Position numbers and translations under genes: made by a program. 64,000 nt of DNA from Minisyncoccota bacterium. GTDB lineage: Bacteria > Patescibacteriota > Minisyncoccia > UBA6257 > JAAZHW01. Position 1 is the stretch's first letter; the number at the start of each line of letters is the position of its first letter. Location: positions 2,283 through 66,282 of the forward strand of contig DAOSMC010000001.1 of NCBI GenBank assembly GCA_035369485.1, in the 5' to 3' direction. This document shows, in pieces, positions 705-25,793 of the stretch. A model generated the notes under the pieces. The model had not been told where the DNA came from. It saw nothing but the letters and a program-made list of their open reading frames with translations, and did no database searches.

Positions 705-714
705 TAATTGGATT

Positions 715-2190: not shown

Positions 2191-2239
2191 AGAATTGAGG
2201 AAGTTGTGAGGCAAGCGAGTAAACAAAATGATGGAAAGG

Positions 2240-2284
2240 AAAGTGGCGGCGGAAAATTTCTTTGAAATTTTCCGCCGCCACTTT
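2240..2284. repeat. GC-stem palindromic element, copy A: perfect 21-bp stem, loop TTT, A-tract/T-tract flanks; putative bidirectional terminator
   Basis: aaagtggcggcggaaaatttc-ttt-gaaattttccgccgccacttt. Family consensus GGCGGCGG-AAAATTTC-TTT-GAAATTTT-CCGCCGCC. Lies downstream of the 715-2190 CDS. Confidence 0.75.
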
Positions 2285-2475
2285 CATTGTTTAAAATACG
2301 GGTAAAAAATTATCTGAATGATTGACGCAGTTAGAAGAGATCTTTTCTGGCTATCTTTATGAGAACAACAAAAATGAAAAATTTAATGTATAAAACCTCG
2401 ATTTTTTTATTTGCTTTTTGGTAATTATTTTGATACATTAAAAGAGATAGTTTAAATAATAAAAATCCAACTAAA

Positions 2476-4155
2476 ATGGCGGATCAAGATGAAGCAAAAA
2501 AACTGAGCCATATATTAGAAGGGACGAGAGAAGCGGCCGAAGAGCGAGAAGCTGAAAGGTTGGCTAAAAGTCTTAAATTCCAATATGCCAATCTGACAAA
2601 ATTTGCTTCTCAGACTCAGGCCCTTCAGTTAATTAACGAGGAAGAGGCGCGAGCAGCTTTATGCGCGCCATTTAATGTTCAACAAAAAAAGGTATTTTTA
2701 GCGTGTAAGAATCCAGCGCTTGACGCAACAAAAAACGTGATTGATAGTTTAAAGCAACGAGGATATGAAGTGGAGATATTTGTGGTTTCTTCTAAATCGT
2801 TGGAGACTTTGTGGAAAGGATATAAGTTTATTACCGGTCGGAAAAAAGAAATTACCGGTGGTTTGGAAATTGATGCTAATCGATTGGCGGAACTATCGAG
2901 CGAGATAAAAAATATTGCCATTTTGAAAGAAAAAATTGATAAATTTGATAGTCCTTATATTTCTCAAATCTTTGAAATTATTATTGCAGGCGCTTTAACA
3001 ATGGATGCTTCTGATGTTCATATTGAGCCAGAAGAAAGCGGCGTGAGGTTAAGATATCGATTAGATGGCGTTTTGCAAGATATTGTTGATTTGAATGAAC
3101 ATTATTATCGCTCAATTTTATCAAGAATTAAATTGCTGGGTGGGATGAAGATTAATATTCATACCGCGCCTCAAGATGGACGTTTTACAATTAAAACAAA
3201 AGATTTAGAAATTGAAGTGCGTGTTTCAATTATTCCGAGTGCGTATGGTGAAACTGTGGTCATGCGCTTGCTTGATCCACGGAGAATCCAATTAGATTTA
3301 AAAGAATTAGGGTTTCGCGAAGACGACTTAGTTATTATTGAAGAGCAAGTTGCTCGGCCTAATGGGTTGATTTTGAACACTGGACCAACTGGTTCAGGTA
3401 AAACCACTACCTTATATGCATTTTTGAGACGCATTTATCAACCAGGCATTAAAATTATCACCATTGAAGATCCAATAGAATATCATTTAGAAGGAATTAC
3501 TCAAACACAAGTTAATCCCACGAGAGATTATACTTTTGCTAATGGTTTGCGTTCTATTCTGAGACAAGATCCGGATGTAATTTTGGTGGGAGAAATTCGT
3601 GATAATGAAACAGCGGAAATTGCAATGCATGCCGCATTAACAGGTCATCTTGTATTATCAACGCTTCATACAAATGATGCGTGCGGTACTATCCCGCGGC
3701 TTTTAGACATGAAGGTGCAGCCAGCGATTTTGGCGCCAGCTTTAAATTTAGCCATTGCTCAACGATTGGTGAGAAAACTTTGTGTTCATTGTCGGGAAAA
3801 GGTAGAGGCTACAGCAGAGCAAGCTGAAAAAATTCGTAAAGTAATAGAACGGCTTCCGGATCGAGTTAAGAAACCAACACTCGGCAAACAAATTACTTTT
3901 TACAAATCGAAAGGTTGCGAACTTTGTAATGGTACGGGCTATAAAGGACGAATAGCGATTGCGGAATTATTAGTGGTTGATAGAGAAATCCAGGATTTAA
4001 TTAATCAAGGCGATCGTATGCCGACGGCGAATGAAATTAAGGATTTGGCAATTAAAAAGGGGATGACTACGATGGAAGATGATGCTATTTTGAAGATTTT
4101 AGATGGAATTACCAGCTTATCTGAGGCAGAAAATGTGTTGGGAAAGTTGTTATAA
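2476..4155 (+). CDS. GspE/PilB-family secretion ATPase; second PilB paralog, distant from the pilus locus
   Basis: N-terminal GspE_N-like region, Walker A GPTGSGKTTT, Asp/His boxes and a C-terminal tetracysteine motif (CVHC...CELC). Confidence 0.75.
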   Translation: MADQDEAKKLSHILEGTREAAEEREAERLAKSLKFQYANLTKFASQTQALQLINEEEARAALCAPFNVQQKKVFLACKNPALDATKNVIDSLKQRGYEVEIFVVSSKSLETLWKGYKFITGRKKEITGGLEIDANRLAELSSEIKNIAILKEKIDKFDSPYISQIFEIIIAGALTMDASDVHIEPEESGVRLRYRLDGVLQDIVDLNEHYYRSILSRIKLLGGMKINIHTAPQDGRFTIKTKDLEIEVRVSIIPSAYGETVVMRLLDPRRIQLDLKELGFREDDLVIIEEQVARPNGLILNTGPTGSGKTTTLYAFLRRIYQPGIKIITIEDPIEYHLEGITQTQVNPTRDYTFANGLRSILRQDPDVILVGEIRDNETAEIAMHAALTGHLVLSTLHTNDACGTIPRLLDMKVQPAILAPALNLAIAQRLVRKLCVHCREKVEATAEQAEKIRKVIERLPDRVKKPTLGKQITFYKSKGCELCNGTGYKGRIAIAELLVVDREIQDLINQGDRMPTANEIKDLAIKKGMTTMEDDAILKILDGITSLSEAENVLGKLL

Positions 4156-4181
4156 AATTCAAATTGTGTAATGTATAATTG

Positions 4182-4226
4182 AAAAAGCGGCGGAAATTTT
4201 CTTTAAGAAAATTTCCGCCGCTTTTT
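4182..4226. repeat. GC-stem palindromic element, copy B: perfect 20-bp stem, A5/T5 flanks; putative terminator of the PilB-like gene
   Basis: aaaaagcggcggaaattttc-tttaa-gaaaatttccgccgcttttt. Confidence 0.75.
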
Positions 4227-4499
4227 CATCCGTCATCAAAATTATTTCATGAATTAATTCATGAAATAATAAACAATGAAAATGCTAATTTAGTATCAAT
4301 TCTTTTATTTTTTAAAAAAATTAAAATAGTGCATTGGTTTTGAAATTCAAGTTTTATTTTTGTCATTCGGAATGAAAGAAGTAGTTTTTAAAATTTGAAG
4401 TGATATAATATTTTTACTTGCGTTTAAAAAAAGCAGATTTATCTTGTTGTCAAAAAAATGAAGTTCAAATAATCGTGTCAGCTGTTTCTGTGTTTTTTA

Positions 4500-4745
4500 A
4501 GTTTTGTTTTAATAAAAAACAGCCCCTTCAACCCGGAGGCAATTTAATCTCGCAAAAAAGATGCGAGCTCAAGAATTTTTTAAGGCCTACCCGCTGACAG
4601 GCGAGTATGATAACCCAGTCGGAACCAGGTTACCCTTAAATAAATTCCCTATAGGCTTTAATTGGGTTGAAATAACGCCAATTGCCCCCAGGTTGAAAAG
4701 GCTGTTTCGGGTAACTATTTTTAAGAGAACAATAATCCTATAATG
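4500..4745. ncRNA. Candidate structured ncRNA of unknown class (GC-enriched island inside an 880-bp gene-free gap)
   Basis: GC content is clearly above the AT-rich surroundings. Local stems ctcgca/tgcgag at 4549-4567 and gctgttt/aaacagc at 4482-4517. No convincing ORF: the 60-aa track ORF at 4561-4743 is not protein-like. I could not recognise the family by eye. Confidence 0.25.
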
Positions 4746-4996
4746 ATATTATAGCACACCTAAAGATAAAAGTCAATAGTTTGACGGATATCGTAAAAAT
4801 GGTTAAATAACTAAAAATTAAAGAAGTAAAATGTATTATAGTGTTTAGTTATTTTAATGTCAAGAGGGGAGTTGGGGATAAGTTTAGCCCCCCAAAATTA
4901 TAAATTTTAGATTCTTCAATAAGGTAAATTACTGCTTTAATATTTTCCAAGCGTTATATTTATTATTAGAGTTGAAGATCAACTAATTTTTACACT

Positions 4997-5025
4997 TTGA
5001 CTTTTAAGATTTTGATTAATATAAT
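4997..5025 (+). promoter_or_regulatory. Near-consensus sigma70 promoter for ruvB: TTGACT - 17 nt - TATAAT, with the TSS about 6 nt before the ATG
   Basis: ttgact at 4997-5002, a 17-nt spacer, tataat at 5020-5025 and the start codon at 5038. Implies a leaderless or near-leaderless mRNA. Confidence 0.5.
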
Positions 5026-5037
5026 AAAAGTATTACC

Positions 5038-6051
5038 ATGTCTAAGAATATTTTCAAATCGGATCCACTACTTGATAATGCCCTGCGACCAAAACGATGG
5101 GAAGATTTTATCGGTCAAGAAAAAGTGAAAAAAAATTTAAGAATTATGTTGGGAGCGGCGCAAAAAAGAGAAGAGGTAGTAGACCACCTGCTTTTTTATG
5201 GCGGAGCAGGGTTGGGAAAAACAACACTAGCTTATTTAATTGCAGAAGAGATTCATGCCAATTTGAAAATTACATCTGGTCCAGCAATTGAAAAAGCAGC
5301 AGATCTAGCATCACTTCTCGCTAATTTAGAAGAAGGAGATATATTATTTATTGATGAAATCCATCGTTTAAATAAAATGATTGAAGAAATTTTATATTCT
5401 GCTATGGAATCGCGGGTTTTGAATTTAGTTTTAGGCAAACGTTCTTCTACTCGCGCTGTTCAATTAGATTTGCCGCCTTTTACTTTAATTGGTGCCACAA
5501 CAAGAATTGGCTTACTCTCCAGCCCCTTACGTTCTCGTTTTGGAGCTATTTTCAAATTGGATTTTTATGATTTAGAAGATATAAAAAAGATTTTGCAAAA
5601 CAATGCTAGGTTGCTGGGTGTTAATATTTCGGAAGAGGCAATGGAAATTTTAGCTCGAGCCAGTCGAGCCACTCCGCGAGTTGCCAATCGTTTGCTCAAA
5701 CGAAGTCGCGATTTGGCGACAATCGAAGGTAAGAGCGAGATTGATGCTGCAATTAGCCGCAAAATTTTAGAGTTATTTGATATTGATGAGTGGGGATTAG
5801 AAGCAACAGATCGAAAGATTTTAGAGGTAATTGTTGATCGATTTAATGGAGGGCCAGTGGGCATTAAAGCTTTAGCTGCCGCGACCAATGAAGAAGAAGA
5901 TACGATTGAAGAAATTTATGAACCATATTTAATGCGATTGGGTCTTTTAGAGCGTACAACACGTGGCCGAATGGTGAGCGATGCCGGATATAAACATTTA
6001 AATCTTTATCATTTAGCACAGAAAGGCGAACAAAAGAAATTGATAGATTGA
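5038..6051 (+). CDS. ruvB: Holliday junction branch-migration helicase RuvB
   Basis: AAA+ Walker A GGAGLGKTT, the conserved RuvB N-terminus (LRPKRWEDFIGQEKVKKNL) and a C-terminal winged helix. Ends in TGA. Confidence 0.9.
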   Translation: MSKNIFKSDPLLDNALRPKRWEDFIGQEKVKKNLRIMLGAAQKREEVVDHLLFYGGAGLGKTTLAYLIAEEIHANLKITSGPAIEKAADLASLLANLEEGDILFIDEIHRLNKMIEEILYSAMESRVLNLVLGKRSSTRAVQLDLPPFTLIGATTRIGLLSSPLRSRFGAIFKLDFYDLEDIKKILQNNARLLGVNISEEAMEILARASRATPRVANRLLKRSRDLATIEGKSEIDAAISRKILELFDIDEWGLEATDRKILEVIVDRFNGGPVGIKALAAATNEEEDTIEEIYEPYLMRLGLLERTTRGRMVSDAGYKHLNLYHLAQKGEQKKLID

Positions 6052-6106
6052 TTATAATAAAATTCAAAAGTCCGCCGGGGACGAGTAAATTCTTTTAATT
6101 AAAGAT

Positions 6107-6143
6107 GGCGGCGGAAAATTTTCGAAGAAAATTTTCCGCCGGC
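6107..6143. repeat. GC-stem palindromic element, copy C: 15-bp perfect stem plus an imperfect extension
   Basis: ggcggcggaaaattttc-gaa-gaaaattttccgccggc. Sits between ruvB and the LTD gene. The ORF-track start at 6105 reads through it. Confidence 0.7.
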
Positions 6144-6182
6144 CGCAAATTCATTTCTCAAAACAACCAATCAAAGTTTTAT

Positions 6183-7520
6183 ATGTTTAAACATTATTTT
6201 TCTTTTCTTATAGTTGCCTTGAGCGTCTTGTTGTTTTTTCCTTTGGTTCAAGCACTGGCTGTGGGGCCGGTGATTATTAATGAAATAATGTATGATTTAC
6301 AAGGAACAGACACAGATCATGAGTGGGTAGAAATTAAAAATATTTCAGATCAAGCAGTTGATTTGAAAGATTGGCGTTTTTATGACGGGAGCAATCATTT
6401 ATTAAATGAACCTCCTCAAAATGGCGGGCAGGGCAGTTTAATTATTGCGCCTGGTGGTTATGCTGTTTTAGCTGACAAAGCAGATGTTTTTTTAGCTGAT
6501 CATCCGGGTTTTGGTGGGATCGTGATTGATACGGTGATGAGTTTGAATAATACTGAGGAAACCGTGCAACTTATTGATCAAAGCGGCAATAGTATTGAAA
6601 AAATAAACTATCAGAAGGAAATGGGTGGCAACGGCAATGGTTATTCGTTGGAGCGTACGGGTGATTTTTCGATGCAATTTTGTGAATCTAATCAATTAGG
6701 AGGTTCGCCCGGCCAAGCTAATAATTTTGATTGCAATAAATCCTCTTTTATGCCGACTCCTTCGTTGACAGCGATGAATACGCCTACGCTAATGATGGCA
6801 ACTGTTTCTCCTAGCGCTTCCCCCGAAACGATTTTAGAAGATACGATTATTGAAAGTGAAGATAATTTGTTGCGAACGACGCCCATTGCTTCTTCGCCAG
6901 TGATAAAAGTAAGCATTATTATTAATGAATTTTTACCTAATCCAACCGGTTCTGATACAGACAATGAGTGGATTGAATTATATAATAACAGCGATGTTAA
7001 AGTAGCGCTTACAGATTGGTGGATTGAAGATGCGAGCGGGCAGAAATATACTTTTAAAGATGAAGAAATAATGAGTCAGGGTTATTTAACCCTTCCTTAT
7101 TCCAAAACGAAAATTACTTTAAATAACAATGGTGAAACTTTGAGTTTATATTCACCTCGAGGAGAATTAGCTTTTAAAATTTCTTATTCGGGCAAAGCCA
7201 ACGAGGGTATGTCTTTTGCGCGAGCCGGCCAAAATGACTGGCGATGGACTTCAATTCTTACTCCTAATAAGCAGAATCAATTTTCAAGCGAATCATCGCA
7301 AAATACGGAATTAGCAATTCAACAGATGGATGAATCGGATGTTGCTGAAAATAATGCGCCTTCAACTGTTGATGCCGACTCTTCTTTAAAGCAGCAGACA
7401 GTAACGAGTTCGATATCAAACGCGTCAGATAAGATAATTATTGTTGCTATTGGATTGGGTTTAATATTAAGTGTAGTAGCAGCAATTTTTATTAAAAAGA
7501 TTTTACCGCCAGTTCATTGA
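6183..7520 (+). CDS. Lamin-tail-domain (LTD) surface protein with a signal/TM N-terminus, two LTD repeats and a C-terminal TM anchor
   Basis: Two copies of the LTD signature (VIINEIMYD..GTDTDHEWVEIKN and IIINEFLPNPTGSDTDNEWIELYN) and a C-terminal hydrophobic IIIVAIGLGLILSVVAAIFI. The start was moved to the ATG at 6183 because 6105-6143 is the palindrome. Confidence 0.6.
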   Translation: MFKHYFSFLIVALSVLLFFPLVQALAVGPVIINEIMYDLQGTDTDHEWVEIKNISDQAVDLKDWRFYDGSNHLLNEPPQNGGQGSLIIAPGGYAVLADKADVFLADHPGFGGIVIDTVMSLNNTEETVQLIDQSGNSIEKINYQKEMGGNGNGYSLERTGDFSMQFCESNQLGGSPGQANNFDCNKSSFMPTPSLTAMNTPTLMMATVSPSASPETILEDTIIESEDNLLRTTPIASSPVIKVSIIINEFLPNPTGSDTDNEWIELYNNSDVKVALTDWWIEDASGQKYTFKDEEIMSQGYLTLPYSKTKITLNNNGETLSLYSPRGELAFKISYSGKANEGMSFARAGQNDWRWTSILTPNKQNQFSSESSQNTELAIQQMDESDVAENNAPSTVDADSSLKQQTVTSSISNASDKIIIVAIGLGLILSVVAAIFIKKILPPVH

Positions 7521-7527
7521 TGAAATT

Positions 7528-10080: not shown

Positions 10081-10119
10081 AAGAAAATTAAAATTCAAAA
10101 GATGGAGTCAAAAATAAAA

Positions 10120-10626
10120 TTATTTAAGTTTTTTAGTTTTGGGTTGGGATTTTATTTTTGAATTTTCAACTTTTGAATTAATTGTTATTTCTCTCTTATT
10201 TTTATCAACGACTTTGAAATTGATCCACAGAGTATTTTTTGGAAGTAGCTTTTTAATACGTTCTGGCCACTCAATAAAAACGAGATTTTTTGGATCCTGA
10301 ATAATTTTTTTAAAATCAAGAGTAAGAATTTCCTCCGCTTTTTCCAGACGATAACAATCAATATGGTAAAAATTTTTAAAATGGGGATTTTTTCGTAATG
10401 AAAAAGATTTAATGATTAAAAATGTGGGGCTTAAAATTCTGCCTTTGATTTTTAGAGATTTGCCTACGCCTTGAATAAAGGTGGTTTTGCCAGCGCCCAA
10501 ATTACCCTGTAGAGCAAAAATATGAGGTGGTGAAGATTTTTGGTCCAGTAGTGTTTTTACAAGAATTTGAGCAATTTTTTGAGTTTGGACTGGTGAATGA
10601 GAAAGAATTTTTAGGGAAGATTGCAT
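10120..10626 (-). CDS. tsaE: tRNA t6A37 biosynthesis ATPase TsaE (YjeE family)
   Basis: P-loop GNLGAGKTTF within a protein of about 169 aa. The track N-terminus (10627-10731) translates the palindrome, so the start is placed at the ATG at 10626. Confidence 0.55.
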   Translation of the reverse strand: MQSSLKILSHSPVQTQKIAQILVKTLLDQKSSPPHIFALQGNLGAGKTTFIQGVGKSLKIKGRILSPTFLIIKSFSLRKNPHFKNFYHIDCYRLEKAEEILTLDFKKIIQDPKNLVFIEWPERIKKLLPKNTLWINFKVVDKNKREITINSKVENSKIKSQPKTKKLK

Positions 10627-10670
10627 TAAAGAAATTATACAATAAAAAGTTAAAAAACAAAATGACGAAA

Positions 10671-10723
10671 GGCGAAAGGGGCGGCGGAAAATTTCTTTGA
10701 AATTTTCCGCCGCCCCTTTCGCC
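10671..10723. repeat. GC-stem palindromic element, copy D: perfect 25-bp stem, located between the divergent starts of tsaE (-) and murA (+)
   Basis: ggcgaaaggggcggcggaaaatttc-ttt-gaaattttccgccgcccctttcgcc. Not in a terminator position. Confidence 0.75.
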
Positions 10724-10795
10724 TGTCGCAAATCGTTTTCAAATACCTATTTTTTTAATTTGCTTTTTTCTTTATTTTGTCTTAAATTAGAATTG

Positions 10796-12076
10796 ATGAG
10801 TCATTTTTTTGAAATTGAAGGAAGTAAAAAATTAAAAGGAGAAATTAAAGTATCAGGCACAAAAAATGGCGCACTGGCTATTTTACCAGCCTGTCTTTTA
10901 ACCGAGGAGCCTTGTGTGATTAAAAATATTCCGCTGCTTACTGACGTTTTAGTGATGGTTGATATTCTAAAGAATTTAGGGGCGGAAATAGAATGGTTAG
11001 ATGAAAGAACAATTCGTATTCAAGCAAAAAATGTTTTAAGTGATGCTGATACGAAATTAGTAAGAAAAATTAGAGCATCGTTTTTAGTGGCTGGTCCTAT
11101 TTTAGCGCGGATAGGCGAATTAAAAATTGCAAAACCCGGCGGTTGTCATATTGGCGCGCGCAGTTTAGATACGCATTTTGAGGGTTTTGCTGATTTGGGT
11201 GTTAAATCAGCTTTAGAAAGAGAAGAATCTGAAAAATATTATTTAAAAGCTCCAAAACAATTTAAACCAGCCATTGTTTCTTTAAATGAATTTAGCGTGA
11301 CAGCAACGGAAAATCTAATGATGTTAATGGCGAAGATTGAAGGAAAAAGCGAAATCCATTTAGCAGCTGCTGAACCGCATGTTCAAGAATTAGGCGAATT
11401 TTTAAAATCAATGGGCGCTGAGATTGAAGGATTGGGAACACATACCATTATTATTAAAGGCAAGCAAAAATTGAAAGGCGCAGAACATACCATTTGGCCT
11501 GATTATATTGAAGCGGGGACTTTTTTTAGTTTAGCTGCTACAACTAAAAGTAATCTTACTATTACCAATGTACCTGTTGCTTATTTAGAAATGGTCTTTC
11601 GTAAGTTGAAAAAAATGGGAGTTTCGTATAGAATAAAAGACAGCCAGGTTTTAATTGAGGGCAAAGATAGTTCTTTGAAAGCAGCCAAAATTCAAACATT
11701 ACCGTATCCAGGATTTCCAACTGATCTTCAAGCTCCTTTCGCGGTTTTAGCTACTCAAGCTAAAGGTGACAGTTTAATTTTTGATACATTATTTGAAGGC
11801 AGATTTAAATATGTTGATGAGTTAAATCAAATGGGAGCAAAAATTTTTCTTTGCGATCCGCACCGTATTCTTGTATCAGGTCCGACGCCGCTTTATGGAA
11901 CAAAAATCAAAAGTTTTGATTTACGTTCAGGAGCCACGCTGATTATTGCTGCCTTAGCGGCTCGGGGAAAAAGTCAGCTTCTAGGCATTGAAGAAGTAGA
12001 CCGCGGTTATGAAAAAATTGAAGAGCGGCTGCAAAAAATTGGTGCGAATATAAAACGAGTCGAGGCAGAATCATAA
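10796..12076 (+). CDS. murA: UDP-N-acetylglucosamine 1-carboxyvinyltransferase
   Basis: EPSP-synthase/MurA fold: KLKGEIKVSGTKNGALAILPACLL, a catalytic Cys loop region, and C-terminal LRSGATLIIAALAARG and VDRGYEKIEERL. The start was moved to the ATG at 10796, downstream of the palindrome. Confidence 0.8.
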   Translation: MSHFFEIEGSKKLKGEIKVSGTKNGALAILPACLLTEEPCVIKNIPLLTDVLVMVDILKNLGAEIEWLDERTIRIQAKNVLSDADTKLVRKIRASFLVAGPILARIGELKIAKPGGCHIGARSLDTHFEGFADLGVKSALEREESEKYYLKAPKQFKPAIVSLNEFSVTATENLMMLMAKIEGKSEIHLAAAEPHVQELGEFLKSMGAEIEGLGTHTIIIKGKQKLKGAEHTIWPDYIEAGTFFSLAATTKSNLTITNVPVAYLEMVFRKLKKMGVSYRIKDSQVLIEGKDSSLKAAKIQTLPYPGFPTDLQAPFAVLATQAKGDSLIFDTLFEGRFKYVDELNQMGAKIFLCDPHRILVSGPTPLYGTKIKSFDLRSGATLIIAALAARGKSQLLGIEEVDRGYEKIEERLQKIGANIKRVEAES

Positions 12077-12080
12077 TAAT

Positions 12081-13088: not shown

Positions 13089-13089
13089 A

Positions 13090-13839: not shown

Positions 13840-13864
13840 TTTTTTTATTTTTGTTGCTAAAAGC

Positions 13865-14030
13865 CATGGGATCCTTCGGGCGTTACCCTCAGGATGACGT
13901 AAGAAGCGAAAGCCGAAGGATCCTTCGGACTAAAACCCTCAGGATGACAATGTATTGGTTTGTCATTCTGAGTGAAACCTGCCTGCCGGTTAGGTAGGTG
14001 AAGAATCTCATACTCAGCAGTGATGGTTAA
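13865..14030. other. Structured repeat-rich intergenic element: two direct copies of GGATCCTTCGG...ACCCTCAGGATGAC, each with a nearby complement
   Basis: 13868-13878 ggatccttcgg pairs with 13912-13922 ccgaaggatcc. 13912-13927 is a perfect 16-nt palindrome. ctcaggatgac at 13939-13949 pairs with gtcattctgag at 13962-13972. GC is above background. Confidence 0.4.
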
Positions 14031-14035
14031 TAAGG

Positions 14036-14068
14036 CGGCGGCGAATTTCTTTTAGAAATTCGCCGCCG
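14036..14068. repeat. GC-stem palindromic element, copy E: 15-bp stem, loop TTT
   Basis: cggcggcgaatttct-ttt-agaaattcgccgccg, between holB and frr. Confidence 0.65.
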
Positions 14069-14186
14069 GTAAACCCTGTTTTATTTTTAAATTTTATGCC
14101 ACTGCTTTATTGCTAATTATAGAGTGAAAATTTGAGATTTACATTTTATTATATTATAATTATTATAGTCGTTAAAACATTTATTT

Positions 14187-14750: not shown

Positions 14751-14790
14751 AAGAAATTAATTTTTTCATAAAAAGAACCATTCTTTTTAT

Positions 14791-15867: not shown

Positions 15868-15914
15868 GGTTAAAAATTGAAAAAAGAAAAAAAAGAATTA
15901 CAATATTAAGGACT

Positions 15915-17186: not shown

Positions 17187-17188
17187 TT

Positions 17189-19028: not shown

Positions 19029-19030
19029 TA

Positions 19031-19546: not shown

Positions 19547-21471
19547 TGAAATTAAATTTTAAGAAGAATAAAAAAGTAAAAAGAGAAAGTGATTTTTTGG
19601 AAGTAGAAGAAATTTTATTTAATAAAGAAGCGGTTTCAAAATTAAAAGAAGAAGAACTTAGTCGTTTGGAGGTTTCTATTGGGAAATGGGGGTTAAATTC
19701 GATTTTTTTGTTTGGGATTTTTCTTTTAATTTTTGCGTTAGGCTTGGTTGGTTATTTAAATTTTGCGAAAGGCGATGAATATCAACAAATTGCCCAAAAA
19801 AATGCTTTAAAATCCATTCCTATTATTGCTGATCGAGGTTTGATTTTTGATAATCATAATAGGGTTTTGGTTTACAATCAAGAAGTATTTGATTTAGTGT
19901 TTTTCCCTGCGTATTTACCTGTTGATAAAATAGAAAGAGAAAAGATATTAAAAAAAATTGAAGAAAAACCAGAAATTGCAGCGGCTATTAATAAAGAAAA
20001 TTTAGAAGAAGATGACCCTTTAGAGAGTATTATTTTACAAAGCAATTTAAGTCGCGAAGAGGCTATTAGATGGGAAAGCTATTTTGCTGGTTATTCAGCA
20101 GTTCAAGTTATTAGGCAAAACTTACGCCAATATACTTCACCACTTGCTTTTAGTCATATTTTAGGTTATGTGGGTCGCGTATCGGCTGAAGATATTCAGA
20201 AAAATCCACTTTATAGTAATTTTGTGAAAATTGGCAAAGCTGGTCTCGAATCTTTTTATGAAGATAATTTACGCGGTCAAGACGGAGAAATTAAAGTACT
20301 AAGAAATGCTTATATGGAAATTTTAGGGCAGAGCGTCGTTAAAGAGCCGGTGGCGGGTAATAATCTTTATTTAACGATTGATGCCGATCTCCAAGAATAC
20401 AGCTATAAAACTCTTGCTCGACAGATTGATAATTTAGGGAAAGAAAGAGGCGGCGTAGTAATTGTTTCTGACCCGCAGAGTGGAGAAATCCTTTCATTAG
20501 TTAGCTACCCAGGTTATGATATCAATAGTTTGTCAAAGGGTATTACCCAGAAAGAATTTGAAACATTAATCAATTCAAAAGTTACTCCTCTTTTTAATCG
20601 AACGGTTTCTGGTCTTTATAATCCAGGTTCAACAATCAAACCAATCATCGCCATTGCTGCTTTAGAAGAAAACATCATCGATCCTTTTAAAAAAATAGAA
20701 ACGCACGGCTATATTACTATTCCTAATCCTTATTTTCCTGATCGGCCATCTATTTTTGTTGATTGGCGTAATAATGGTGTTGTAAACATGCAAGATGCAA
20801 TTGCTCGATCCAGCAACGTTTATTTTTATATTATTGGTGGTGGTTATGAAGATTTTGTTGGATTGGGCATTGAGCGAATTAGAAATTATTTAGAAAAATT
20901 TCAATTTAATCTAGTAACCGGTATTGATTTACCAGCAGAAAAAGTTAGCAATATTCCTGATGAAAAGAGTAAAAACCCCTGGCGTATAGGTGACACCTAC
21001 AATGTTTCTATTGGCCAGGGCGATTTATTAACAACACCGATAAGATTAATAACGAGTTTAAACGTTATGATTAACGGTGGAAAAATTTTGCGGCCGTATC
21101 TTTTAGATCACATTGCTGATAATAATCAGCGGACAATTTTTCAAAACGAAATACAAGTAGCAAAAGATAATTTTCTAAACTCCAAAAACATAGAGATTGT
21201 AAAAGAAGGAATGCGAAAAACGGTTACGAGTCCTTTAGGCACGGCGCATACTCTTATCGATTTACCATTTAGTGTTGGAGGAAAAAGCGGCAGCGCTCAA
21301 ACATCAGGTAATACAAAAACCAATGCCTTATTTTATGCTTTTGCTCCGTATGACGATCCACAGATTTCCGTTTTAATTTTAATTGAAGATGTACCGGAAG
21401 GTTCTTTAAATGCTATTCCAGTAGCAAAAGATATTTTAATGTGGTATTATAAAAATAGAGGTTTTAAATAA
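19546..21471 (+). CDS. mrdA: Penicillin-binding protein 2 (elongasome transpeptidase)
   Basis: N-terminal TM, then SxxK (GSTIKP), SxN (SSNVYF) and KSG motifs. Genomic context with mreBCD. Confidence 0.75.
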   Translation: MKLNFKKNKKVKRESDFLEVEEILFNKEAVSKLKEEELSRLEVSIGKWGLNSIFLFGIFLLIFALGLVGYLNFAKGDEYQQIAQKNALKSIPIIADRGLIFDNHNRVLVYNQEVFDLVFFPAYLPVDKIEREKILKKIEEKPEIAAAINKENLEEDDPLESIILQSNLSREEAIRWESYFAGYSAVQVIRQNLRQYTSPLAFSHILGYVGRVSAEDIQKNPLYSNFVKIGKAGLESFYEDNLRGQDGEIKVLRNAYMEILGQSVVKEPVAGNNLYLTIDADLQEYSYKTLARQIDNLGKERGGVVIVSDPQSGEILSLVSYPGYDINSLSKGITQKEFETLINSKVTPLFNRTVSGLYNPGSTIKPIIAIAALEENIIDPFKKIETHGYITIPNPYFPDRPSIFVDWRNNGVVNMQDAIARSSNVYFYIIGGGYEDFVGLGIERIRNYLEKFQFNLVTGIDLPAEKVSNIPDEKSKNPWRIGDTYNVSIGQGDLLTTPIRLITSLNVMINGGKILRPYLLDHIADNNQRTIFQNEIQVAKDNFLNSKNIEIVKEGMRKTVTSPLGTAHTLIDLPFSVGGKSGSAQTSGNTKTNALFYAFAPYDDPQISVLILIEDVPEGSLNAIPVAKDILMWYYKNRGFK

Positions 21472-21624
21472 TTAATGTCTTAATCGATATCTTAAATTTT
21501 AAAATCTAACCTCAAATAATTTTAAAGGCATTAAAAATTATAAAATTATTTCGGTGATGCTTTTAGAATAACAATTGGATTGAAAGCCGCGGGATTCATC
21601 TATTAGATTTTGTTTTTGGATGCT

Positions 21625-21662
21625 GCGCGGTGGCGATTTTCTTTAGAAAATCGCCACCGCGC
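21625..21662. repeat. GC-stem palindromic element, copy F: perfect 17-bp stem, loop TTTA (variant GCGCGGTGGCG)
   Basis: gcgcggtggcgattttc-ttta-gaaaatcgccaccgcgc, between mrdA and greA. Confidence 0.7.
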
Positions 21663-21705
21663 CGCTTCATCTCTAGTCGTTTATTACTTTTAGATTTAAT
21701 ATTTC

Positions 21706-22179
21706 ATGAATAATATGCCCCCAGTTTATTTAAGCAAAGAAAAATATGAAGAGTTATGTCGTGAACTTGAAGCACGGAAAACGACTATTCGGCAAAAAAT
21801 AGCCGCTGATTTAAAGCATGCTAAAGACCTAGGAGATTTATCCGAAAACGCCGCTTATACAGAAGCCAAAGATGCAAAAGAAAAAAACGATCGTCGAATT
21901 GATGAACTAGAAAATATTCTTGCTCATTGCGAAATTATTGAAAAATCACAAAAAAATGATAGAGTTTATATAGGAGCTAAAGTGAAAATTCAAGACGAAA
22001 AAGGAGAGATTTTCGAATATCAAATTGTTGGCCCAGAAGAAAGTGATCCATTTAAAAACCTGATTTCTTACAGATCGCCATTAGGAATGGAGTTGATGGA
22101 TAAAAAAGAAGGAGATTGGATTAAAATTCAAAGCCCCAATCAAACGATCAAAAAATATAAAATTATCTCTATTGATTAA
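21706..22179 (+). CDS. greA: Transcription elongation factor GreA
   Basis: 157 aa, with an N-terminal coiled-coil carrying the conserved acidic tip and a C-terminal FKBP-like domain. Confidence 0.8.
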   Translation: MNNMPPVYLSKEKYEELCRELEARKTTIRQKIAADLKHAKDLGDLSENAAYTEAKDAKEKNDRRIDELENILAHCEIIEKSQKNDRVYIGAKVKIQDEKGEIFEYQIVGPEESDPFKNLISYRSPLGMELMDKKEGDWIKIQSPNQTIKKYKIISID

Positions 22180-22183
22180 AATT

Positions 22184-23662
22184 ATGTCAACAGCTGATCA
22201 GGTTAAAAAAATAAGAATTGCAAAAATAAAAGAATTAAAAAAACAAGGCAAGGAAGTGTATCCCAGTCATTGTTTTCGTAACCAATCAATTAGTAATATT
22301 TTGAATAATTTTTATTCTTGGAGTATTGCAAAAAAGAAAATTTGGGTAGGAGGAAGAATAATGAGTATTCGTTTTCATGGCGGAATAGCATTTGCCGATT
22401 TGTGGGATGCCAGCGGGCATTTACAGATTGTTTTTAAAAAAGAGGAAACAAAAAATTTTGAACTTCTCAATCAATACTTGGATGTAAGCGATTTTATTGA
22501 AGTAAGAGGTTTTCCTTTCAAAACGGAAAGAGGGGAAAAAAGTTTATTAGTTCAAGAGTGGCGTATTTTAGCAAAAAGCTTAAAGCCCATTCCTTCAGAA
22601 TGGTATGGTTTAAAAGACACCGAAGAACGCTTTCGGCGTCGCTATCTTGATTTAATTTTAAACGAGGAAGTAAAAAAGCGCTTTGAAACTCGCTCGAGAA
22701 TTATTAAAGCAATGAGAGGCTTTTTTGATAAGGAAGGTTTTATGGAAGTGGAAACGCCTATTTTACAAACATTGGCCGGCGGAGCCGCTGCGTGTCCATT
22801 CAAAACAAAACTTAATATTTTGAATATGCCACTTTATCTTCGCATTGCACCAGAATTATATTTGAAACGATTAATTGTTGGTGGTTTTGAAAAGATTTTT
22901 GAAATTGGTAAGAATTTTCGCAACGAGGGTATTGATAAAACTCATAATCCAGAATTTACAATGATGGAGCTTTATTGGGCCTATGCTGATTATGAAGATA
23001 TGATGGATTTTATTGAACAGCTTTTTGTTTATATTCTCAAAAACGCCTTGCCTCAAACAAAAGACCCCATGCTCATTAATTTTAATGGTCAATTAATTAA
23101 TTTTACTCCACCATGGCCACGCAAAAAATTTTTAGATTTAATTGAAGAAGAAACAAGCCTAAAACCGTTAGCAACAAAGAGTCAAACATGGAGAGCGTTT
23201 CTTCAAACTCAAGGAGTAACAATAACAGAAGAAATAAAAAAGATGGATGAGTGGGGGTTGATGGATGAAGTTTATAAAAAAGTTTGTTTAGAAAAATTAA
23301 CTCAGCCCACTTTTGTTACCCATCATCCCATTGTTTTATCGCCATTAGCAAAATTGAGCAAAGACAATTTGAATGAAACAGAAAGATTTCAGTTGGTTGC
23401 TGGCGGAATCGAATTGGTTAATGGTTATTCAGAATTAAATGACCCCTTAGAGCAAGCGGAACGTTTTAAAAAACAAGAACAACGAAGAAAAGCGGGGAAT
23501 AAAGAAGCATCGCCCTATGATAAAGATTTTATAGAAGCATTGGAATATGGAATGCCACCCACAGCAGGCGTTGGTATTGGCATTGATCGATTGGTTATGC
23601 TTTTAACCAATGCACCATCTATCAAAGAGGTCATCTTTTTCCCTTTTATGAAAAATAAATAA
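22184..23662 (+). CDS. lysS: Lysyl-tRNA synthetase, class II
   Basis: An OB anticodon-binding N-domain and class II motifs 1-3 (FRNEG, GGIELVNGYSELNDP, GVGIGIDRLVMLL). The track start is TTG, so the start was trimmed to the ATG at 22184. Confidence 0.85.
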   Translation: MSTADQVKKIRIAKIKELKKQGKEVYPSHCFRNQSISNILNNFYSWSIAKKKIWVGGRIMSIRFHGGIAFADLWDASGHLQIVFKKEETKNFELLNQYLDVSDFIEVRGFPFKTERGEKSLLVQEWRILAKSLKPIPSEWYGLKDTEERFRRRYLDLILNEEVKKRFETRSRIIKAMRGFFDKEGFMEVETPILQTLAGGAAACPFKTKLNILNMPLYLRIAPELYLKRLIVGGFEKIFEIGKNFRNEGIDKTHNPEFTMMELYWAYADYEDMMDFIEQLFVYILKNALPQTKDPMLINFNGQLINFTPPWPRKKFLDLIEEETSLKPLATKSQTWRAFLQTQGVTITEEIKKMDEWGLMDEVYKKVCLEKLTQPTFVTHHPIVLSPLAKLSKDNLNETERFQLVAGGIELVNGYSELNDPLEQAERFKKQEQRRKAGNKEASPYDKDFIEALEYGMPPTAGVGIGIDRLVMLLTNAPSIKEVIFFPFMKNK

Positions 23663-23666
23663 AAAT

Positions 23667-24899
23667 ATGCTTACAGATTTATTAAAAAAAATTAGAGAAA
23701 ATCCTCAATTATATAAAGAAGGAATTGCAAAGAAAAATTGCAACGTCGAAATTATTGATAAAATTTTAGCAATTGACAAAGAATATCGTAGTAATTTAGC
23801 AGAAGTGGAATTTTTGAGAGCTCATTTAAATGAGTTGTCACAAAATGCTAAATTTAGCCAAGATCATTTAGAGCAAGCGCGAGCTACTAAACAGCGTATT
23901 AAAGATTTGGAAAGGGAATTAACACCAATAGAAAATGACTTAGATAAATTACTTTATCAGATTCCTAATTTACCGTTTGAGGATGTTCCATTAGGGAAAG
24001 ACGAGAGTGAAAATAAAGTATTACGAGAAGTGGGGAAAAGGCCAAAATTTAAATTTGAACCTCAAGATTATTTAACGCTAACAGAAGATAAGTGGATTGA
24101 TACTAAAAGAGCTGCTAAAGTAGCGGGAACGCGCTTCGGATATTTAAAAAATGAGGCAGTGCTTTTGGAATATGCGTTAGTAAGATGGGTAATGAATTCT
24201 CTTAAAGAAAAAGGATTTGTGCCAATAGTCCCGCCTGCTTTTATTTCTTCTAAGGCTATGAAGGGGATGGGTTATATTGATAATGAAAAAGATTTGGCGG
24301 AACGTTATTATTTTCCTCAAGATGATTTATTTTTGATTGGTACAGCCGAGCAAGCAGTTGGTCCGATGCATATGGACGAAGTTTTAGAAGAAAAAGAGTT
24401 GCCTTTGCGCTATATTGCTTTTTCGCCGTGCTTTAGAAGAGAAGCTGGTTCTTATGGAAAAGATACCAAAGGAATTTGGCGCGTACATTATTTTGAAAAA
24501 TTGGAAATGTTTATTTTTTGTAAACCAGAACAATCTGAAGAAGAGCATCAGCTTATTTTAGCTATTGAAGAGGAGTTGATGCAAAAATTGGGATTGCCTT
24601 ATCGTGTTATTCAATTGTGTACGGGCGATTTGTCAAATCCTTCGGCTAAATCTTTTGATATTGAAGCATGGTTGCCGAGTCAGAATCGATACGCCGAGAC
24701 TCATTCGTGCAGTAATTGCACAGACTTCCAATCTCGGCGATTAAATATTCGCTATCGATCCAAAGATGGTTTGCAATTCGTGCACACTCTTAATGGAACG
24801 GCGTTTGCTATTGGCAGAATCATCGTTGCAATTATAGAGAATTATCAACAAGCAGATGGTTCAATTAAGATTCCTGAGGTTTTAGAACAATATCTTTAA
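23667..24899 (+). CDS. serS: Seryl-tRNA synthetase
   Basis: An N-terminal coiled-coil arm and the class II core with TLNGTAFAIGRIIVAIIENYQ. Confidence 0.85.
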   Translation: MLTDLLKKIRENPQLYKEGIAKKNCNVEIIDKILAIDKEYRSNLAEVEFLRAHLNELSQNAKFSQDHLEQARATKQRIKDLERELTPIENDLDKLLYQIPNLPFEDVPLGKDESENKVLREVGKRPKFKFEPQDYLTLTEDKWIDTKRAAKVAGTRFGYLKNEAVLLEYALVRWVMNSLKEKGFVPIVPPAFISSKAMKGMGYIDNEKDLAERYYFPQDDLFLIGTAEQAVGPMHMDEVLEEKELPLRYIAFSPCFRREAGSYGKDTKGIWRVHYFEKLEMFIFCKPEQSEEEHQLILAIEEELMQKLGLPYRVIQLCTGDLSNPSAKSFDIEAWLPSQNRYAETHSCSNCTDFQSRRLNIRYRSKDGLQFVHTLNGTAFAIGRIIVAIIENYQQADGSIKIPEVLEQYL

Positions 24900-24914
24900 T
24901 ATCATATTTATGTT

Positions 24915-25718
24915 ATGCCTTATCGACTTACATCTTATAAATTAAGGCAGATTCAAAAGAAAAAACAAAGAAGGCGAACTATTTTTGTTATCATTATTAT
25001 TGTTCTCTTCATTTGTTGCCTCGGCGGGATATTATTTTTTTCACCTCTTTTTCAAATCAACAGCATAGCTATTAATTCTACTCATTTTGTTAAAATGAGC
25101 GATATTTTTCAGAAAGCAACCGAGCAGTTTAAGGATCAAAAACTGTTTAATTTAATAACCGTTCCGGCTAACCTCATTCTTTTTACTCAAGCTGATTGTA
25201 AGGCTATTGAAAAATATTTCGTGGCTTTGGATTCTGTTGACTGCCAAAAAATTTATATTGCTAAAATGCTTAAAATTGAAGCGCGAGAAAAACAACAAAT
25301 AGGAATCCTTTGTTCTGATTCGGTAATTAAAAACCATGGAAATTGTTTGTATTTTGATCAAAACGGTATCGTATTTGCTCTAGCCGAAGAAGACGATGAT
25401 TTTGATCATTCTCTTATTGCGATGCAAGATGTTACTAATCGCATTTATCAATTAGGTGATAAAATTATTTCCTATGATTTTTCGCCTGTGGTAAAAATAA
25501 AAGACATTTTGGCGAATCATCAATTAATATTGAATAAAATAGAAATTGATGATCATGATGTGGTTTATTTTTTTGAAAACGGATTTAAATTGTTAATTTC
25601 TCAAGAAAAATTAAAAGAGACAGCGAATATTTTACCTCGTTTATTAGAAATAGAATTCGATTTACAAAAATTAGAGTATTTAGATCTACGCTTTTTGCCA
25701 AAGATGTATTATAAGTAG
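24915..25718 (+). CDS. Single-pass membrane protein, possibly an FtsQ/DivIB-like (POTRA) cell-division protein
   Basis: A basic N-terminus, one TM helix, and a periplasmic domain of the size of FtsQ. The family assignment is from topology only. Confidence 0.3.
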   Translation: MPYRLTSYKLRQIQKKKQRRRTIFVIIIIVLFICCLGGILFFSPLFQINSIAINSTHFVKMSDIFQKATEQFKDQKLFNLITVPANLILFTQADCKAIEKYFVALDSVDCQKIYIAKMLKIEAREKQQIGILCSDSVIKNHGNCLYFDQNGIVFALAEEDDDFDHSLIAMQDVTNRIYQLGDKIISYDFSPVVKIKDILANHQLILNKIEIDDHDVVYFFENGFKLLISQEKLKETANILPRLLEIEFDLQKLEYLDLRFLPKMYYK

Positions 25719-25754
25719 ATTGAAAGATTAGAGTGATAAAGATAGGGTTTTTAA

Positions 25755-25793
25755 GGGGCGACGAAAATTTTCTTTGAAAATTTTCGTCGCCCC
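25755..25793. repeat. GC-stem palindromic element, copy G: perfect 18-bp stem, between convergent genes
   Basis: ggggcgacgaaaattttc-ttt-gaaaattttcgtcgcccc. Confidence 0.7.

What the first reader, a model, noticed from the sequence alone, without database searches (positions are those of the whole stretch)
2240..25793. Family of seven long GC-stem/AT-interior perfect palindromes (GGCGGCGG-AAAATTTC-TTT-GAAATTTT-CCGCCGCC) dispersed between genes
Copies lie at 2240-2284, 4182-4226, 6107-6143, 10671-10723, 14036-14068, 21625-21662 and 25755-25793. Their stems are 15-25 bp, mostly without a single mismatch. Every copy shares both the outer GC block and the inner AAAATTTC/GAAATTTT block. In a genome of about 33% GC these are striking GC spikes. 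Copies A, B and D carry A-tract/T-tract flanks like bidirectional intrinsic terminators. Copies C, E and F lack a U-tract, and copy D sits between the divergent 5' ends of tsaE and murA, where a terminator has no obvious role. Conservation of the AT-rich inner half, which a terminator does not need, together with copy-to-copy variation (CGGCGG, GGTGGCG, GGCGACG), suggests a proliferating REP-like palindromic element or a shared protein/RNA recognition site, not independently evolved terminators. The elements also create artefactual ORF extensions: the peptide AAENF(K/R)(E/K)IFRR is translated from them in the track ORFs at 6105, 10697, 10731 (minus) and 2075-2287 (minus).
Basis: seen in the sequence. 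Interest (0 to 1): 0.65.

Follow-up and report, generated by a model that had tools for sequence, protein, structure and literature searches.

The report
Dispersed hairpin repeat family between genes
The seven GC-clamped, AT-centred perfect palindromes are real copies of one short repeat family that has spread through the spaces between genes in a lineage of ultra-small (Paceibacterota/CPR) bacteria. It resembles the REP/BIME repeats of E. coli, and the copies are not independently evolved transcription terminators.

Summary
All seven palindromes sit at the stated places with perfect 15-26 bp stems. The window has 11 perfect hairpins with stems of at least 13 bp; shuffles give 0.07.

They are one family by descent:
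- The same 31-35 nt cores recur at about 22 different intergenic sites in related metagenome contigs, in discrete subfamilies.
- Copies A and D share 66 nt, including asymmetric flanks.

Fully syntenic sister species (77-79% MurA identity) have none of copies A-F (G was not checked). Their six spacers total about 700 nt against 2,048 nt here.

The copies are not confined to 3' ends. They occupy 5/11 divergent, 29/86 tandem and 1/8 convergent spacers. Convergent spacers use ordinary A/T-flanked terminators.

In a relative only 91% identical, A-D persist with core arms 114/114 identical, against 90% identity in the flanks. Loops flip between strains. One strain differs from the window in 200 nt only at the two partners of one base pair.

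No GTAG/CGTC head and no RAYT gene were found, so this is REP/BIME-like but not a demonstrated REP. Function is inferred: weak terminator or insulator hairpin, or a recognition site.

The parts
2239..2285 (.). Copy A. Perfect 22-bp stem, loop TTT, 48 nt after the stop of the 491-aa gene (715-2190) and upstream of the conserved pilB promoter block. The imperfect unit extends to about 2218-2300.
   Evidence: -38.5 kcal/mol. Shares 66 nt at 91% with copy D, including the asymmetric flank AAACAAAATGAYG. The loop is AAA in the 91%-identical relative L047. The orthologous spacer is 40-46 nt with no hairpin in L032/L034/L040.
4180..4228 (.). Copy B. Perfect 24-bp stem with true A5/T5 flanks, 24 nt after the pilB (T2SSE) stop. 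It faces the 3' end of a conserved minus-strand ncRNA candidate about 290 nt away.
   Evidence: -35.3 kcal/mol. The 77-79% relatives carry an unrelated canonical terminator at this position (AAATCCGCCTCA ATAA TGAGGCGGATTT). A 95%-identical copy lies in another Parcubacteria contig, L014.
6109..6141 (.). Copy C. Perfect 15-bp stem, loop GAA, between the ruvB stop (6051) and the start placed for the lamin-tail-domain gene (6183). No T-tract follows.
   Evidence: -25.2 kcal/mol. The ruvB-LTD spacer is 13-15 nt in L032/L034/L040 against 131 nt here. Present with an identical core in L047, L074 and L085.
10670..10724 (.). Copy D. Perfect 26-bp stem, loop TTT, between the divergent 5' ends of tsaE (start placed at 10626, minus strand) and murA (start 10796).
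   Evidence: -55.5 kcal/mol. The core is identical in L035/L047 while the outer stem differs. L074 differs from the window in 200 nt only at the paired positions G84A and C112T. The spacer is 68 nt without a hairpin in 77-79% relatives.
14036..14068 (.). Copy E (variant core GGCGGCGAATTTCT). Perfect 15-bp stem, inside an extra stretch of roughly 240 nt between holB and the conserved frr promoter.
   Evidence: -28.2 kcal/mol. Absent from the 90% (L030/L036) and 78-79% relatives. Related palindromes occur in L082, L049, L052 and L083.
21625..21662 (.). Copy F (variant core GGTGGCGATTTTCT). Perfect 18-bp stem between the PBP2 gene and greA.
   Evidence: -38.7 kcal/mol. The spacer is 44-46 nt without a hairpin in 77-79% relatives. 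The 90% relatives have an unalignable spacer of roughly 270-280 nt containing a degenerate GGTGGACG...CGTCACC palindrome. Related copies occur in L044, L052 and L083.
25755..25793 (.). Copy G (variant core GGGGCGACGAAAATTTTC). Perfect 18-bp stem between convergent genes: the 267-aa gene ends at 25718 (+) and the comFC-like gene ends at 25805 (-).
   Evidence: -30.5 kcal/mol. It is the only family copy among 8 deduplicated convergent spacers.
13851..14026 (.). Other repeat modules that travel with the family in the same spacer mosaic: CCCTCAGGATGAC x2, GGATCCTTCGG x2 and GTCATTCTGAG.
   Evidence: Dozens of BLAST hits to other intergenic sites in the related contigs. The CCTCAGGATGAC motif lies about 25 nt from family palindromes at four or more other sites.
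4241..4270 (.). ATTATTTCATGAATT/AATTCATGAAATAAT palindrome, 13 nt from copy B. It belongs to an 11-bp TTCATGAATTAA iteron family that accompanies family palindromes at many sites.
   Evidence: (also in L014).

Best explanation
The seven palindromes belong to a lineage-restricted family of short non-coding palindromic repeat elements. The closest analogues are the REP/BIME repeats of proteobacteria.

Anatomy. Each unit has a purine-rich 5' flank, a (CGG)2-3 clamp, an A3-4T3-4C core, a 1-5 nt loop, and then the mirror image.

Shown:
- The copies descend from common templates, and new intergenic sites were colonised in this lineage. Sister species with the same gene order lack them and have roughly three-fold shorter spacers at the six loci compared.
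- The two arms of a copy evolve together, and the loop inverts between strains. This is what arm-to-arm template switching or recombination in a DNA hairpin or cruciform would produce.
- The core is held constant over about 9% genome divergence.

Inferred:
- The AT-rich centre with a GC clamp is an architecture that favours hairpin or cruciform extrusion. I infer that this, rather than termination, explains why the centre is conserved.
- Copying probably uses a single-strand hairpin intermediate. It could be made by a trans-acting enzyme encoded elsewhere or by replication template switching. Neither was observed.
- In RNA the copies form -25 to -55 kcal/mol hairpins. Copies lying 20-100 nt past a stop codon and upstream of the next promoter (A, B, E, G) probably act as orientation-independent terminators, insulators or 3'-end stabilisers. 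These would be mostly weak, because only B has a U-tract.
- Copies between divergent promoters (D) or just ahead of a start codon with no promoter recognised by eye downstream of the hairpin (C, F) cannot be efficient terminators.
For: Common descent:
- Identical 31-35 nt cores occur at about 22 distinct sites in 54 metagenome contigs, in discrete subfamilies: A4T3C+TTT/AAA, A3T4C+TTTAA/TGAAA, A4T4C+GAA/AAA/GGA, A4T4CT+GAA.
- A and D share 66 nt at 91%, including asymmetric flanks.

Gain in this lineage:
- L032/L033/L034/L040 are fully syntenic and have none of A-F. Their six spacers total 689-713 nt against 2,048 nt here.
- E is absent in the 90% relatives.

Not terminator-restricted:
- The family occupies 5/11 divergent, 29/86 tandem and 1/8 convergent spacers.
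- Ordinary A/T-flanked terminators exist in the same genomes.

Arm co-evolution:
- The L074 copy of D differs from the window in 200 nt only at two paired positions.
- The same G/A plus C/T compensated change occurs at another site.
- Loop inversions occur at 6 or more of 37 multi-strain hairpin sites.

Constraint:
- Against L047 (90.7% identical), core arms are 114/114 identical versus 215/239 in the adjacent 30 nt (p=7e-5).

Mosaic context:
- At least three other repeat families share the same spacers.
Against: - No transposase was found. The true E. coli RAYT sequence (PDB 4ER8) gave no hit below E=1 in about 0.9 Mb of six-frame ORFs.
- No target-site duplication and no close filled/empty pair was recovered, so the insertion mechanism is unknown.
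- The outer stems differ from site to site yet stay complementary. A fixed-sequence mobile unit does not predict this.
- Perfect core conservation at 91% identity fits a selected recognition site at least as well as a selfish repeat.
- The species-representative scan found the strict pattern nowhere else in the presumed source MAG except the 676-nt remainder of this contig. Copy number per genome may therefore be tens, not hundreds, and distribution is uneven: seven copies in the first 26 kb of the window and none in the last 38 kb.
- No expression data exist.
Confidence: 0.6

Rival explanations
1. The palindromes are a selected cis-element: a recognition site, as duplex or as hairpin in DNA or RNA, for a host protein such as a nucleoid, supercoiling or termination factor or a nuclease. 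Conservation would reflect that function, and spread would be secondary.
For: Core arms are 114/114 identical at 90.7% overall identity, the same level as the neighbouring conserved ncRNA candidate (197/197), while flanks are 90%. The element works in either orientation, since loop flips are tolerated. Copies co-occur with 11-bp TTCATGAATTAA iterons that look like protein-binding arrays. Copies sit upstream of promoters in all spacer types.
Against: The distance between the two GC clamps varies from 19 to 23 bp among subfamilies, and stem length varies from 15 to 26 bp. That is unusual for a rigid dimer site. Syntenic sister species manage without any copy at the same loci. No candidate binding protein was identified. 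Concerted evolution among copies could also explain the conservation.
Confidence: 0.2
2. They are ordinary Rho-independent terminators that evolved independently at each gene end and look alike only because of shared base-composition constraints.
For: Six of the seven window copies follow a plus-strand stop codon by 24-197 nt. B has canonical A5/T5 flanks, and the simple scan lists A as terminator-like. The 3' flanks are pyrimidine-rich.
Against: Identical 31-35 nt cores at about 22 sites, and 66-nt A/D homology, cannot arise by convergence. D and four other deduplicated sites lie between divergent genes, and only 1/8 convergent spacers carries one. C-G lack a T-tract. C and F sit 41-43 nt before the next start codon with no promoter recognised by eye downstream of the hairpin, where relatives have 13-46 nt spacers. 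The same genomes have canonical, unique A/T-flanked terminators.
Confidence: 0.05
3. They are inverted pairs of a DNA uptake sequence, as in Neisseria and Pasteurellaceae. This is plausible in principle because the window encodes pilB, pilM and a comFC-like protein.
For: Competence-type genes are in the window. In Neisseria, uptake sequences often occur as inverted pairs that double as terminators (established knowledge).
Against: The half-site almost never occurs alone. GGCGGAAA is found outside the palindromes only at 10981 and 61203, and no 8-10-mer of the motif is over-represented. Uptake sequences occur about once per kb, including inside genes.
Confidence: 0.02

Closest known systems
REP / BIME elements of Enterobacteria, Pseudomonas and Stenotrophomonas (PMC2817692, PMC3733652)
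   Same: Short extragenic palindromes with a GC-rich stem and a 2-4 nt centre. Dispersed between genes. Clustered with other motifs into mosaics. Palindromy is preserved through complementary changes. Conserved at orthologous sites, variable between species. Proposed roles in termination, mRNA stabilisation and supercoiling.
   Different: No GT(A/G)G or CGTC head next to the stem. No RAYT found. The stems are perfect and longer (15-26 bp), with an AT-rich centre and a (CGG)n clamp. Outer stems are site-specific. Copy number appears to be tens, not hundreds. The host is a Patescibacteria (CPR) lineage; two full-text searches on terminators and palindromic intergenic repeats in CPR/Patescibacteria turned up no description of such a family.
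CGTC-tagged palindromic repeats (Rickettsia RPE type) that lack a dedicated transposase (PMC3733652)
   Same: A palindromic repeat family with no identifiable cognate transposase.
   Different: No conserved CGTC end. RPEs are longer and often lie inside genes, whereas these copies are strictly intergenic in the data examined.
Bidirectional intrinsic terminators
   Same: A strong GC-based hairpin just past stop codons. Copy B has pairing A/T tracts, and G sits between convergent genes.
   Different: Most copies lack a T-tract. Copies occur between divergent promoters. All share one sequence by descent.
Flip-flop inversion of hairpin loops between short inverted repeats (well known in chloroplast non-coding DNA; my own knowledge, not checked in the library)
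   Same: The loop is found in both orientations between close strains while the arms stay identical.
   Different: Here it is seen in bacterial chromosomal palindromes. It also occurs in unrelated hairpins of the same genomes, so it is a property of perfect palindromes, not of this family.

Membership tests
REP (GTAG-type, RAYT-mobilised) | GT(A/G)G (or CGTC) tetranucleotide head at one end of the palindrome | tested here: not met
   An alignment of 60 non-redundant arm flanks shows only purine richness (0.6-0.9 over the last 15 nt) and no conserved tetranucleotide. GTGG occurs in some copies, but as part of the paired stem on both arms.
REP (GTAG-type, RAYT-mobilised) | Cognate RAYT (Y1/HUH) gene flanked by two inverted REPs | tested here: inconclusive
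   phmmer with E. coli TnpA-REP (sequence identical to PDB 4ER8) against all ORFs >=70 aa of about 0.9 Mb of fetched DNA gave no hit below E=1. HUH/Y-motif regular expressions also found nothing. No complete genome was available, and a single-sequence search can miss distant homologues.
REP (GTAG-type, RAYT-mobilised) | Short extragenic GC-rich palindrome, many copies, arranged in mosaics (BIMEs) | tested here: met
   All family sites are intergenic. About 22 distinct sites were found in the sampled contigs. Mosaic clusters include iterons and other palindromes, e.g. L059 7615-7962 and L051 971-1110. Copies per genome could not be counted.
Rho-independent terminator | T-tract (5 or more T in 8) directly after the stem | tested here: not met
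   The consensus scan lists only copy A (ATTGTTTAAA tail). B has TTTTT inside the extended stem. C-G have no tract within 2 nt.
Rho-independent terminator | Located at 3' ends of transcription units only | tested here: not met
   5/11 divergent, 29/86 tandem and 1/8 convergent spacers carry a family palindrome. D lies between the tsaE and murA 5' ends.
Rho-independent terminator | Transcripts end at the hairpin | not testable with these tools
   No RNA data are available.
MITE | Terminal inverted repeats plus direct target-site duplication; filled and empty sites in close strains | tested here: inconclusive
   No direct repeats flank the copies. Empty sites were seen only in relatives too diverged to define boundaries. 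Candidate polymorphic sites among close strains were ORF-calling artefacts.
DNA uptake sequence (DUS/USS) | Half-site over-represented as single copies throughout the genome, including in genes | tested here: not met
   the half-sites occur essentially only inside the palindromes.
CRISPR / TIGR-type array | Regularly spaced repeats with variable spacers next to effector genes | tested here: not met
   Copies are 2-7 kb apart, between housekeeping genes. The one true array seen (the other palindrome family, L083 12056-12448) is a plain 53-nt tandem repeat with identical 'spacers'.

The most novel reading that the evidence does not exclude
These hairpins may be a transposase-independent, self-propagating module. 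A (CGG)n clamp around an easily melted AT core would extrude as a DNA hairpin, be copied or converted between sites by replication template switching, and then be retained by the host as a U-tract-independent terminator or insulator, or as a recognition element. This would give streamlined CPR genomes a way to create transcription-unit boundaries de novo. The modular palindromes fit such exchange: the same GGCGGCG clamp occurs around different inner cores (AAAATTTC, CTGTTATGCT, AAGGCC). So does the apparently one-step compensated change between near-identical strains.
Probability: 0.15. Interest if true: 0.7.

Novelty: new member of a known kind. Interest (0 to 1): 0.42.

Why it matters
CPR/Patescibacteria genomes are regarded as extremely streamlined. 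My literature searches found no description of their terminators or intergenic repeats.

In this lineage about a third of spacers of 60 nt or more carry one palindromic family, mixed with at least three others. The six spacers compared are about three-fold longer than in sister species.

The data give a clean natural example of three things: arm-to-arm co-evolution, loop inversion, and core conservation in a bacterial palindrome.

Practically, these repeats break short-read assemblies: contigs of relatives start exactly at the palindrome boundary. They also create false N-terminal ORF extensions (AAENF...IFRR peptides) in annotation.

Tried and rejected
- Rfam (gathering over the whole window; E-value mode on the B and E spacers) gave only tRNAs and chance microRNA or sRNA hits to the hairpins.
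- A viral-contig scan and searches of the plasmid and phage collections found no match, so nothing points to a phage or plasmid origin.
- The species-representative genome scan gave 29 single hits in many phyla. Six are one conserved coding stretch. I read the rest as unrelated hairpins; by my own rough estimate this number is about what chance would give for a 12-nt arm among all hairpins in 185,000 genomes. It is not evidence of a wide family.
- A small ORF through the palindrome (MMERKVAAENFFEIFRR...) was rejected: the frame is not kept between A and D, which differ by 1 nt.
- Uptake sequence: rejected.
- CRISPR/TIGR array: rejected.
- The RAYT search was negative.
- The search for filled/empty pairs among close strains produced only ORF-calling artefacts.
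- A literature search for the accompanying GTCATTCTGAGCG motif found nothing relevant.
- I could not place the 676-nt remainder of the presumed source contig (L026). It does not match L059, which extends left of the window, so it probably lies to the right.

Full report
**Observation**

The seven palindromes are at the reported places. Their perfect stems are 15-26 bp with loops of 1-3 nt:
- A 2239-2285
- B 4180-4228
- C 6109-6141
- D 10670-10724
- E 14036-14068
- F 21625-21662
- G 25755-25793

The window is 32-36% GC. It holds 11 perfect hairpins with stems of at least 13 bp, against a mean of 0.07 in 30 dinucleotide-preserving shuffles. As RNA the copies fold at -25 to -55.5 kcal/mol, with z-scores of -4.5 to -11.4.

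That exact block is present only in A and D. B, C and G carry A3T4C or A4T4C variants, and E and F carry CGAATTTCT and GCGATTTTCT. Only B has true A5/T5 flanks.

**Source and gene map**

The window is probably contig JAQTWD010000001.1 of a Candidatus Paceibacterota MAG. This is an inference. That 64,676-nt contig appears in the genome scan as a locus of only 676 nt, L026, with the rest apparently masked. L026 carries a canonical terminator and a further family copy.

Pfam gives this gene order:
- 491-aa protein, then copy A
- pilB, then copy B and an 882-nt spacer
- ruvB, then copy C
- lamin-tail-domain protein, polA(-), tsaE(-), then copy D
- murA, mreB, holB, then copy E
- frr, rseP, proS, mreB and three further ORFs; in the relatives the first of these is MreC and the last is PBP2, and Pfam confirms the PBP2 here; then copy F
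- greA, lysS, serS, 267-aa protein, then copy G
- comFC-like(-)

I place the tsaE start at 10626 and the murA start at 10796, so D lies between divergent 5' ends. A TGTATAAT motif on the minus strand at 10641-10634 abuts tsaE. A block conserved in relatives (TTTGCTTTTTTCTTTNTTTTGTCTTAAATTA) lies between D and murA. I read both as promoters; this is inference.

**One family by descent**

A metagenome scan with a pattern matching A-D returned 54 contigs from anaerobic-digester and activated-sludge samples. They hold 69 matches including the window's four, at about 22 distinct genomic sites.

The cores fall into discrete subfamilies, each found at several unrelated sites with identical 31-35 nt sequences:
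- A4T3C with loop TTT/AAA
- A3T4C with loop TTTAA/TGAAA
- A4T4C with loop GAA/AAA/GGA
- A4T4CT with loop GAA

A and D share 66 nt at 91%, including an asymmetric flank. Convergence cannot produce this.

The scan of one genome per species gave only 29 single matches across many phyla. Six of them are one conserved coding stretch. By my own rough estimate, that number is about what chance gives for a 12-nt hairpin arm. The family is therefore private to this lineage. Viral, phage and plasmid collections have nothing.

**Presence and absence in relatives**

MurA homologues gave a graded series of orthologous loci.

Relatives at 77-79% MurA identity (L032/L033/L034/L040) keep the whole gene order but have none of A-F. 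Copy G lies outside the fetched loci and was not checked.
- Their six spacers measure about 46/482/14/68/57/46 nt, against 285/882/131/169/347/234 nt here. The sums are 689-713 nt against 2,048 nt.
- Their only strong hairpin is an unrelated canonical terminator after pilB.

Relatives at 90% (L030/L036) lack E, have an unalignable spacer at F, and carry a different palindrome upstream of murA in a rearranged context. Their MAG has a family copy at another site, L010.

A relative that is 90.7% identical in DNA (L047, the same population as L035) has A, B, C and D in place.

The family therefore entered these spacers after the split from the 78% clade. Sites differ between the 90% clade and this one. 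Established copies persist.

**Position test**

I examined deduplicated spacers of 60 nt or more in the family-bearing contigs. A family-type perfect palindrome occurs in 5/11 divergent, 29/86 tandem and 1/8 convergent spacers.

Convergent spacers, and L026, carry ordinary unique terminators with A/T tracts. This is the opposite of what a terminator-only family would show.

In tandem spacers the copies usually lie 20-100 nt past the upstream stop and upstream of the next promoter. That fits termination. It also fits simple tolerance of insertions that do not separate a promoter from its gene.

C and F sit 41-43 nt before the next start codon, and I could not recognise a promoter downstream of either hairpin. 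Relatives have spacers of 13-15 nt at the C locus and 44-46 nt at the F locus, with no hairpin. These two copies therefore cannot be efficient terminators.

**Dynamics**

- Against L047, core arms are 114/114 identical. The adjacent 30 nt are 215/239 identical, and all other intergenic DNA is 91% identical (Fisher p=7e-5). At most one of the four sites is biased by how L047was found.
- Between strains that are otherwise 99.4-99.7% identical (L059/L074), copy D differs in 200 nt only at G84A and C112T. These are the two partners of one base pair. The same compensated change occurs at another site.
- Loops are inverted between strains at 6 or more of 37 multi-strain hairpin sites. Unrelated hairpins flip as well.
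- Outer stems differ between sites yet remain complementary for 3-10 bp. The 5' flank of each arm is purine-rich, with no conserved head.

Together these show that the two arms interact at the DNA level. They also show that the core is either selected or homogenised.

**Mosaic context**

The same spacers contain other repeat families:
- A second palindrome with inner core CTGTTATGCT(A) and variable GC outer stem. It occurs at window 68-101, 205-238 and 360-403, and as 53-nt tandem arrays elsewhere.
- 11-bp TTCATGAATTAA iterons (window 4241-4270).
- An ACATTCTCACATTCT palindrome.
- CCTCAGGATGAC / GTCATTCTGAG modules (window 13851-14026).

Some palindromes combine the GGCGGCG clamp with a different inner core.

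**Interpretation**

The best-supported reading is a REP/BIME-like family of miniature palindromic elements. They have colonised intergenic DNA in this Paceibacterota lineage and are kept perfect by arm-to-arm exchange.

Some copies probably serve as weak, orientation-independent terminators, insulators or RNA 3' stabilisers. The way they spread is not known.

The main rival is a selected recognition site for a host factor. The conservation data support it. The variable clamp spacing (19-23 bp) and the absence of copies in sister species argue against it.

Independent terminators and uptake sequences are rejected.

**Comparison with known families**

The family resembles REPs in being short, extragenic, GC-clamped palindromes set in mosaics, with complementary changes preserved (PMC2817692, PMC3733652). 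It fails the defining GT(A/G)G/CGTC head. No RAYT was found in about 0.9 Mb, although that test is inconclusive without a full genome.

It is therefore REP-like in behaviour but not a demonstrated member. Two full-text searches on CPR/Patescibacteria terminators and palindromic intergenic repeats found no description of such repeats; a third search returned the REP/RAYT literature used here for comparison.

I rate it a new member of the general kind 'dispersed extragenic palindromic repeats', of moderate interest.

Noticed in passing
window 68-101, 205-238, 360-403: A second palindrome family with conserved inner core (C)TGTTATGCT(A)/TAGCATAACA(G) and variable GC-rich outer stems. Three copies lie in the 714-nt non-coding stretch at the window start. 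The same family occurs in many related contigs and forms plain 53-nt tandem arrays (L083 12056-12448, 7.4 copies, 94% identical; also L064, L088, L093, L054). It is not a CRISPR array, because the 'spacers' are identical.
   Followed up: partly
window 4511-4712, minus strand: Conserved structured ncRNA candidate of about 190 nt between pilB and ruvB. It has a TTGACT-17-TATAAT promoter at 4776..4748 and a 29-bp closing helix. Its G-U pairs are valid only on the minus strand. 12 of 69 predicted pairs show compensatory changes, and it ends in a U-run. It is 197/197 identical in a 91%-identical relative and recognisable down to 72% MurA relatives. No Rfam family matches, even in E-value mode.
   Followed up: partly
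window 4241-4270: ATTATTTCATGAATT/AATTCATGAAATAAT palindrome next to copy B. It belongs to a family of 11-bp-spaced TTCATGAATTAA/AGCTCATGA iterons that sit beside family palindromes at many sites (L014, L051, L055, L059, L063, L089). It looks like a protein-binding array.
   Followed up: partly
window 13851-14026: The extra DNA in the holB-frr spacer is itself made of dispersed repeat modules (CCCTCAGGATGAC x2, GGATCCTTCGG x2, GTCATTCTGAG...CTCAGCAGTGAT). These have dozens of hits in other spacers of related contigs. In L051, GTCATTCTGAGCG occurs as a 4-unit tandem.
   Followed up: partly
window 1-714: Relatives at 72-79% MurA identity have a GGDEF-domain gene directly upstream of the 48x-aa protein gene. 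The window instead has 714 nt of non-coding, palindrome-rich DNA.
   Followed up: no
window 41222-41261: A perfect 40-bp palindrome (CGAAGATTTATCTGAATCAA/TTGATTCAGATAAATCTTCG, no loop) lies inside the peptide-chain release factor gene (40992-42128; PCRF and RF-1 domains).
   Followed up: no
window 47488-47618: Long imperfect hairpin (ACAAATAAATGCCGGG...CCCCGGCATTTATTTAT, -40 kcal/mol for the spacer) after the gene ending at 47487. It is unrelated to the family and may be a terminator or a leader structure ahead of the ribosomal-protein cluster.
   Followed up: no
L036 1-60, L037 1-60, L038 1-140; also L048, L050, L055, L059, L081: Contigs of relatives start or end at or within about 100 nt of these palindromes. 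L036 and L037 begin exactly where homology with the window resumes downstream of copy D. The repeats evidently break short-read assemblies.
   Followed up: no
window 60045-60496: A 452-nt gap between annotated-size ORFs holds only an 83-aa ORF (60086-60337) with no assignment. No family palindrome is present.
   Followed up: no
L001, L006, L008, L011, L012, L029: The motif GCCGGCGGAAAATTTTGATAAAATTTTCCGCCGC recurs inside what looks like one conserved protein-coding stretch in several Saccharibacteria and Staskawiczbacteria MAGs. It is a palindromic coding sequence unrelated to the intergenic family.
   Followed up: no
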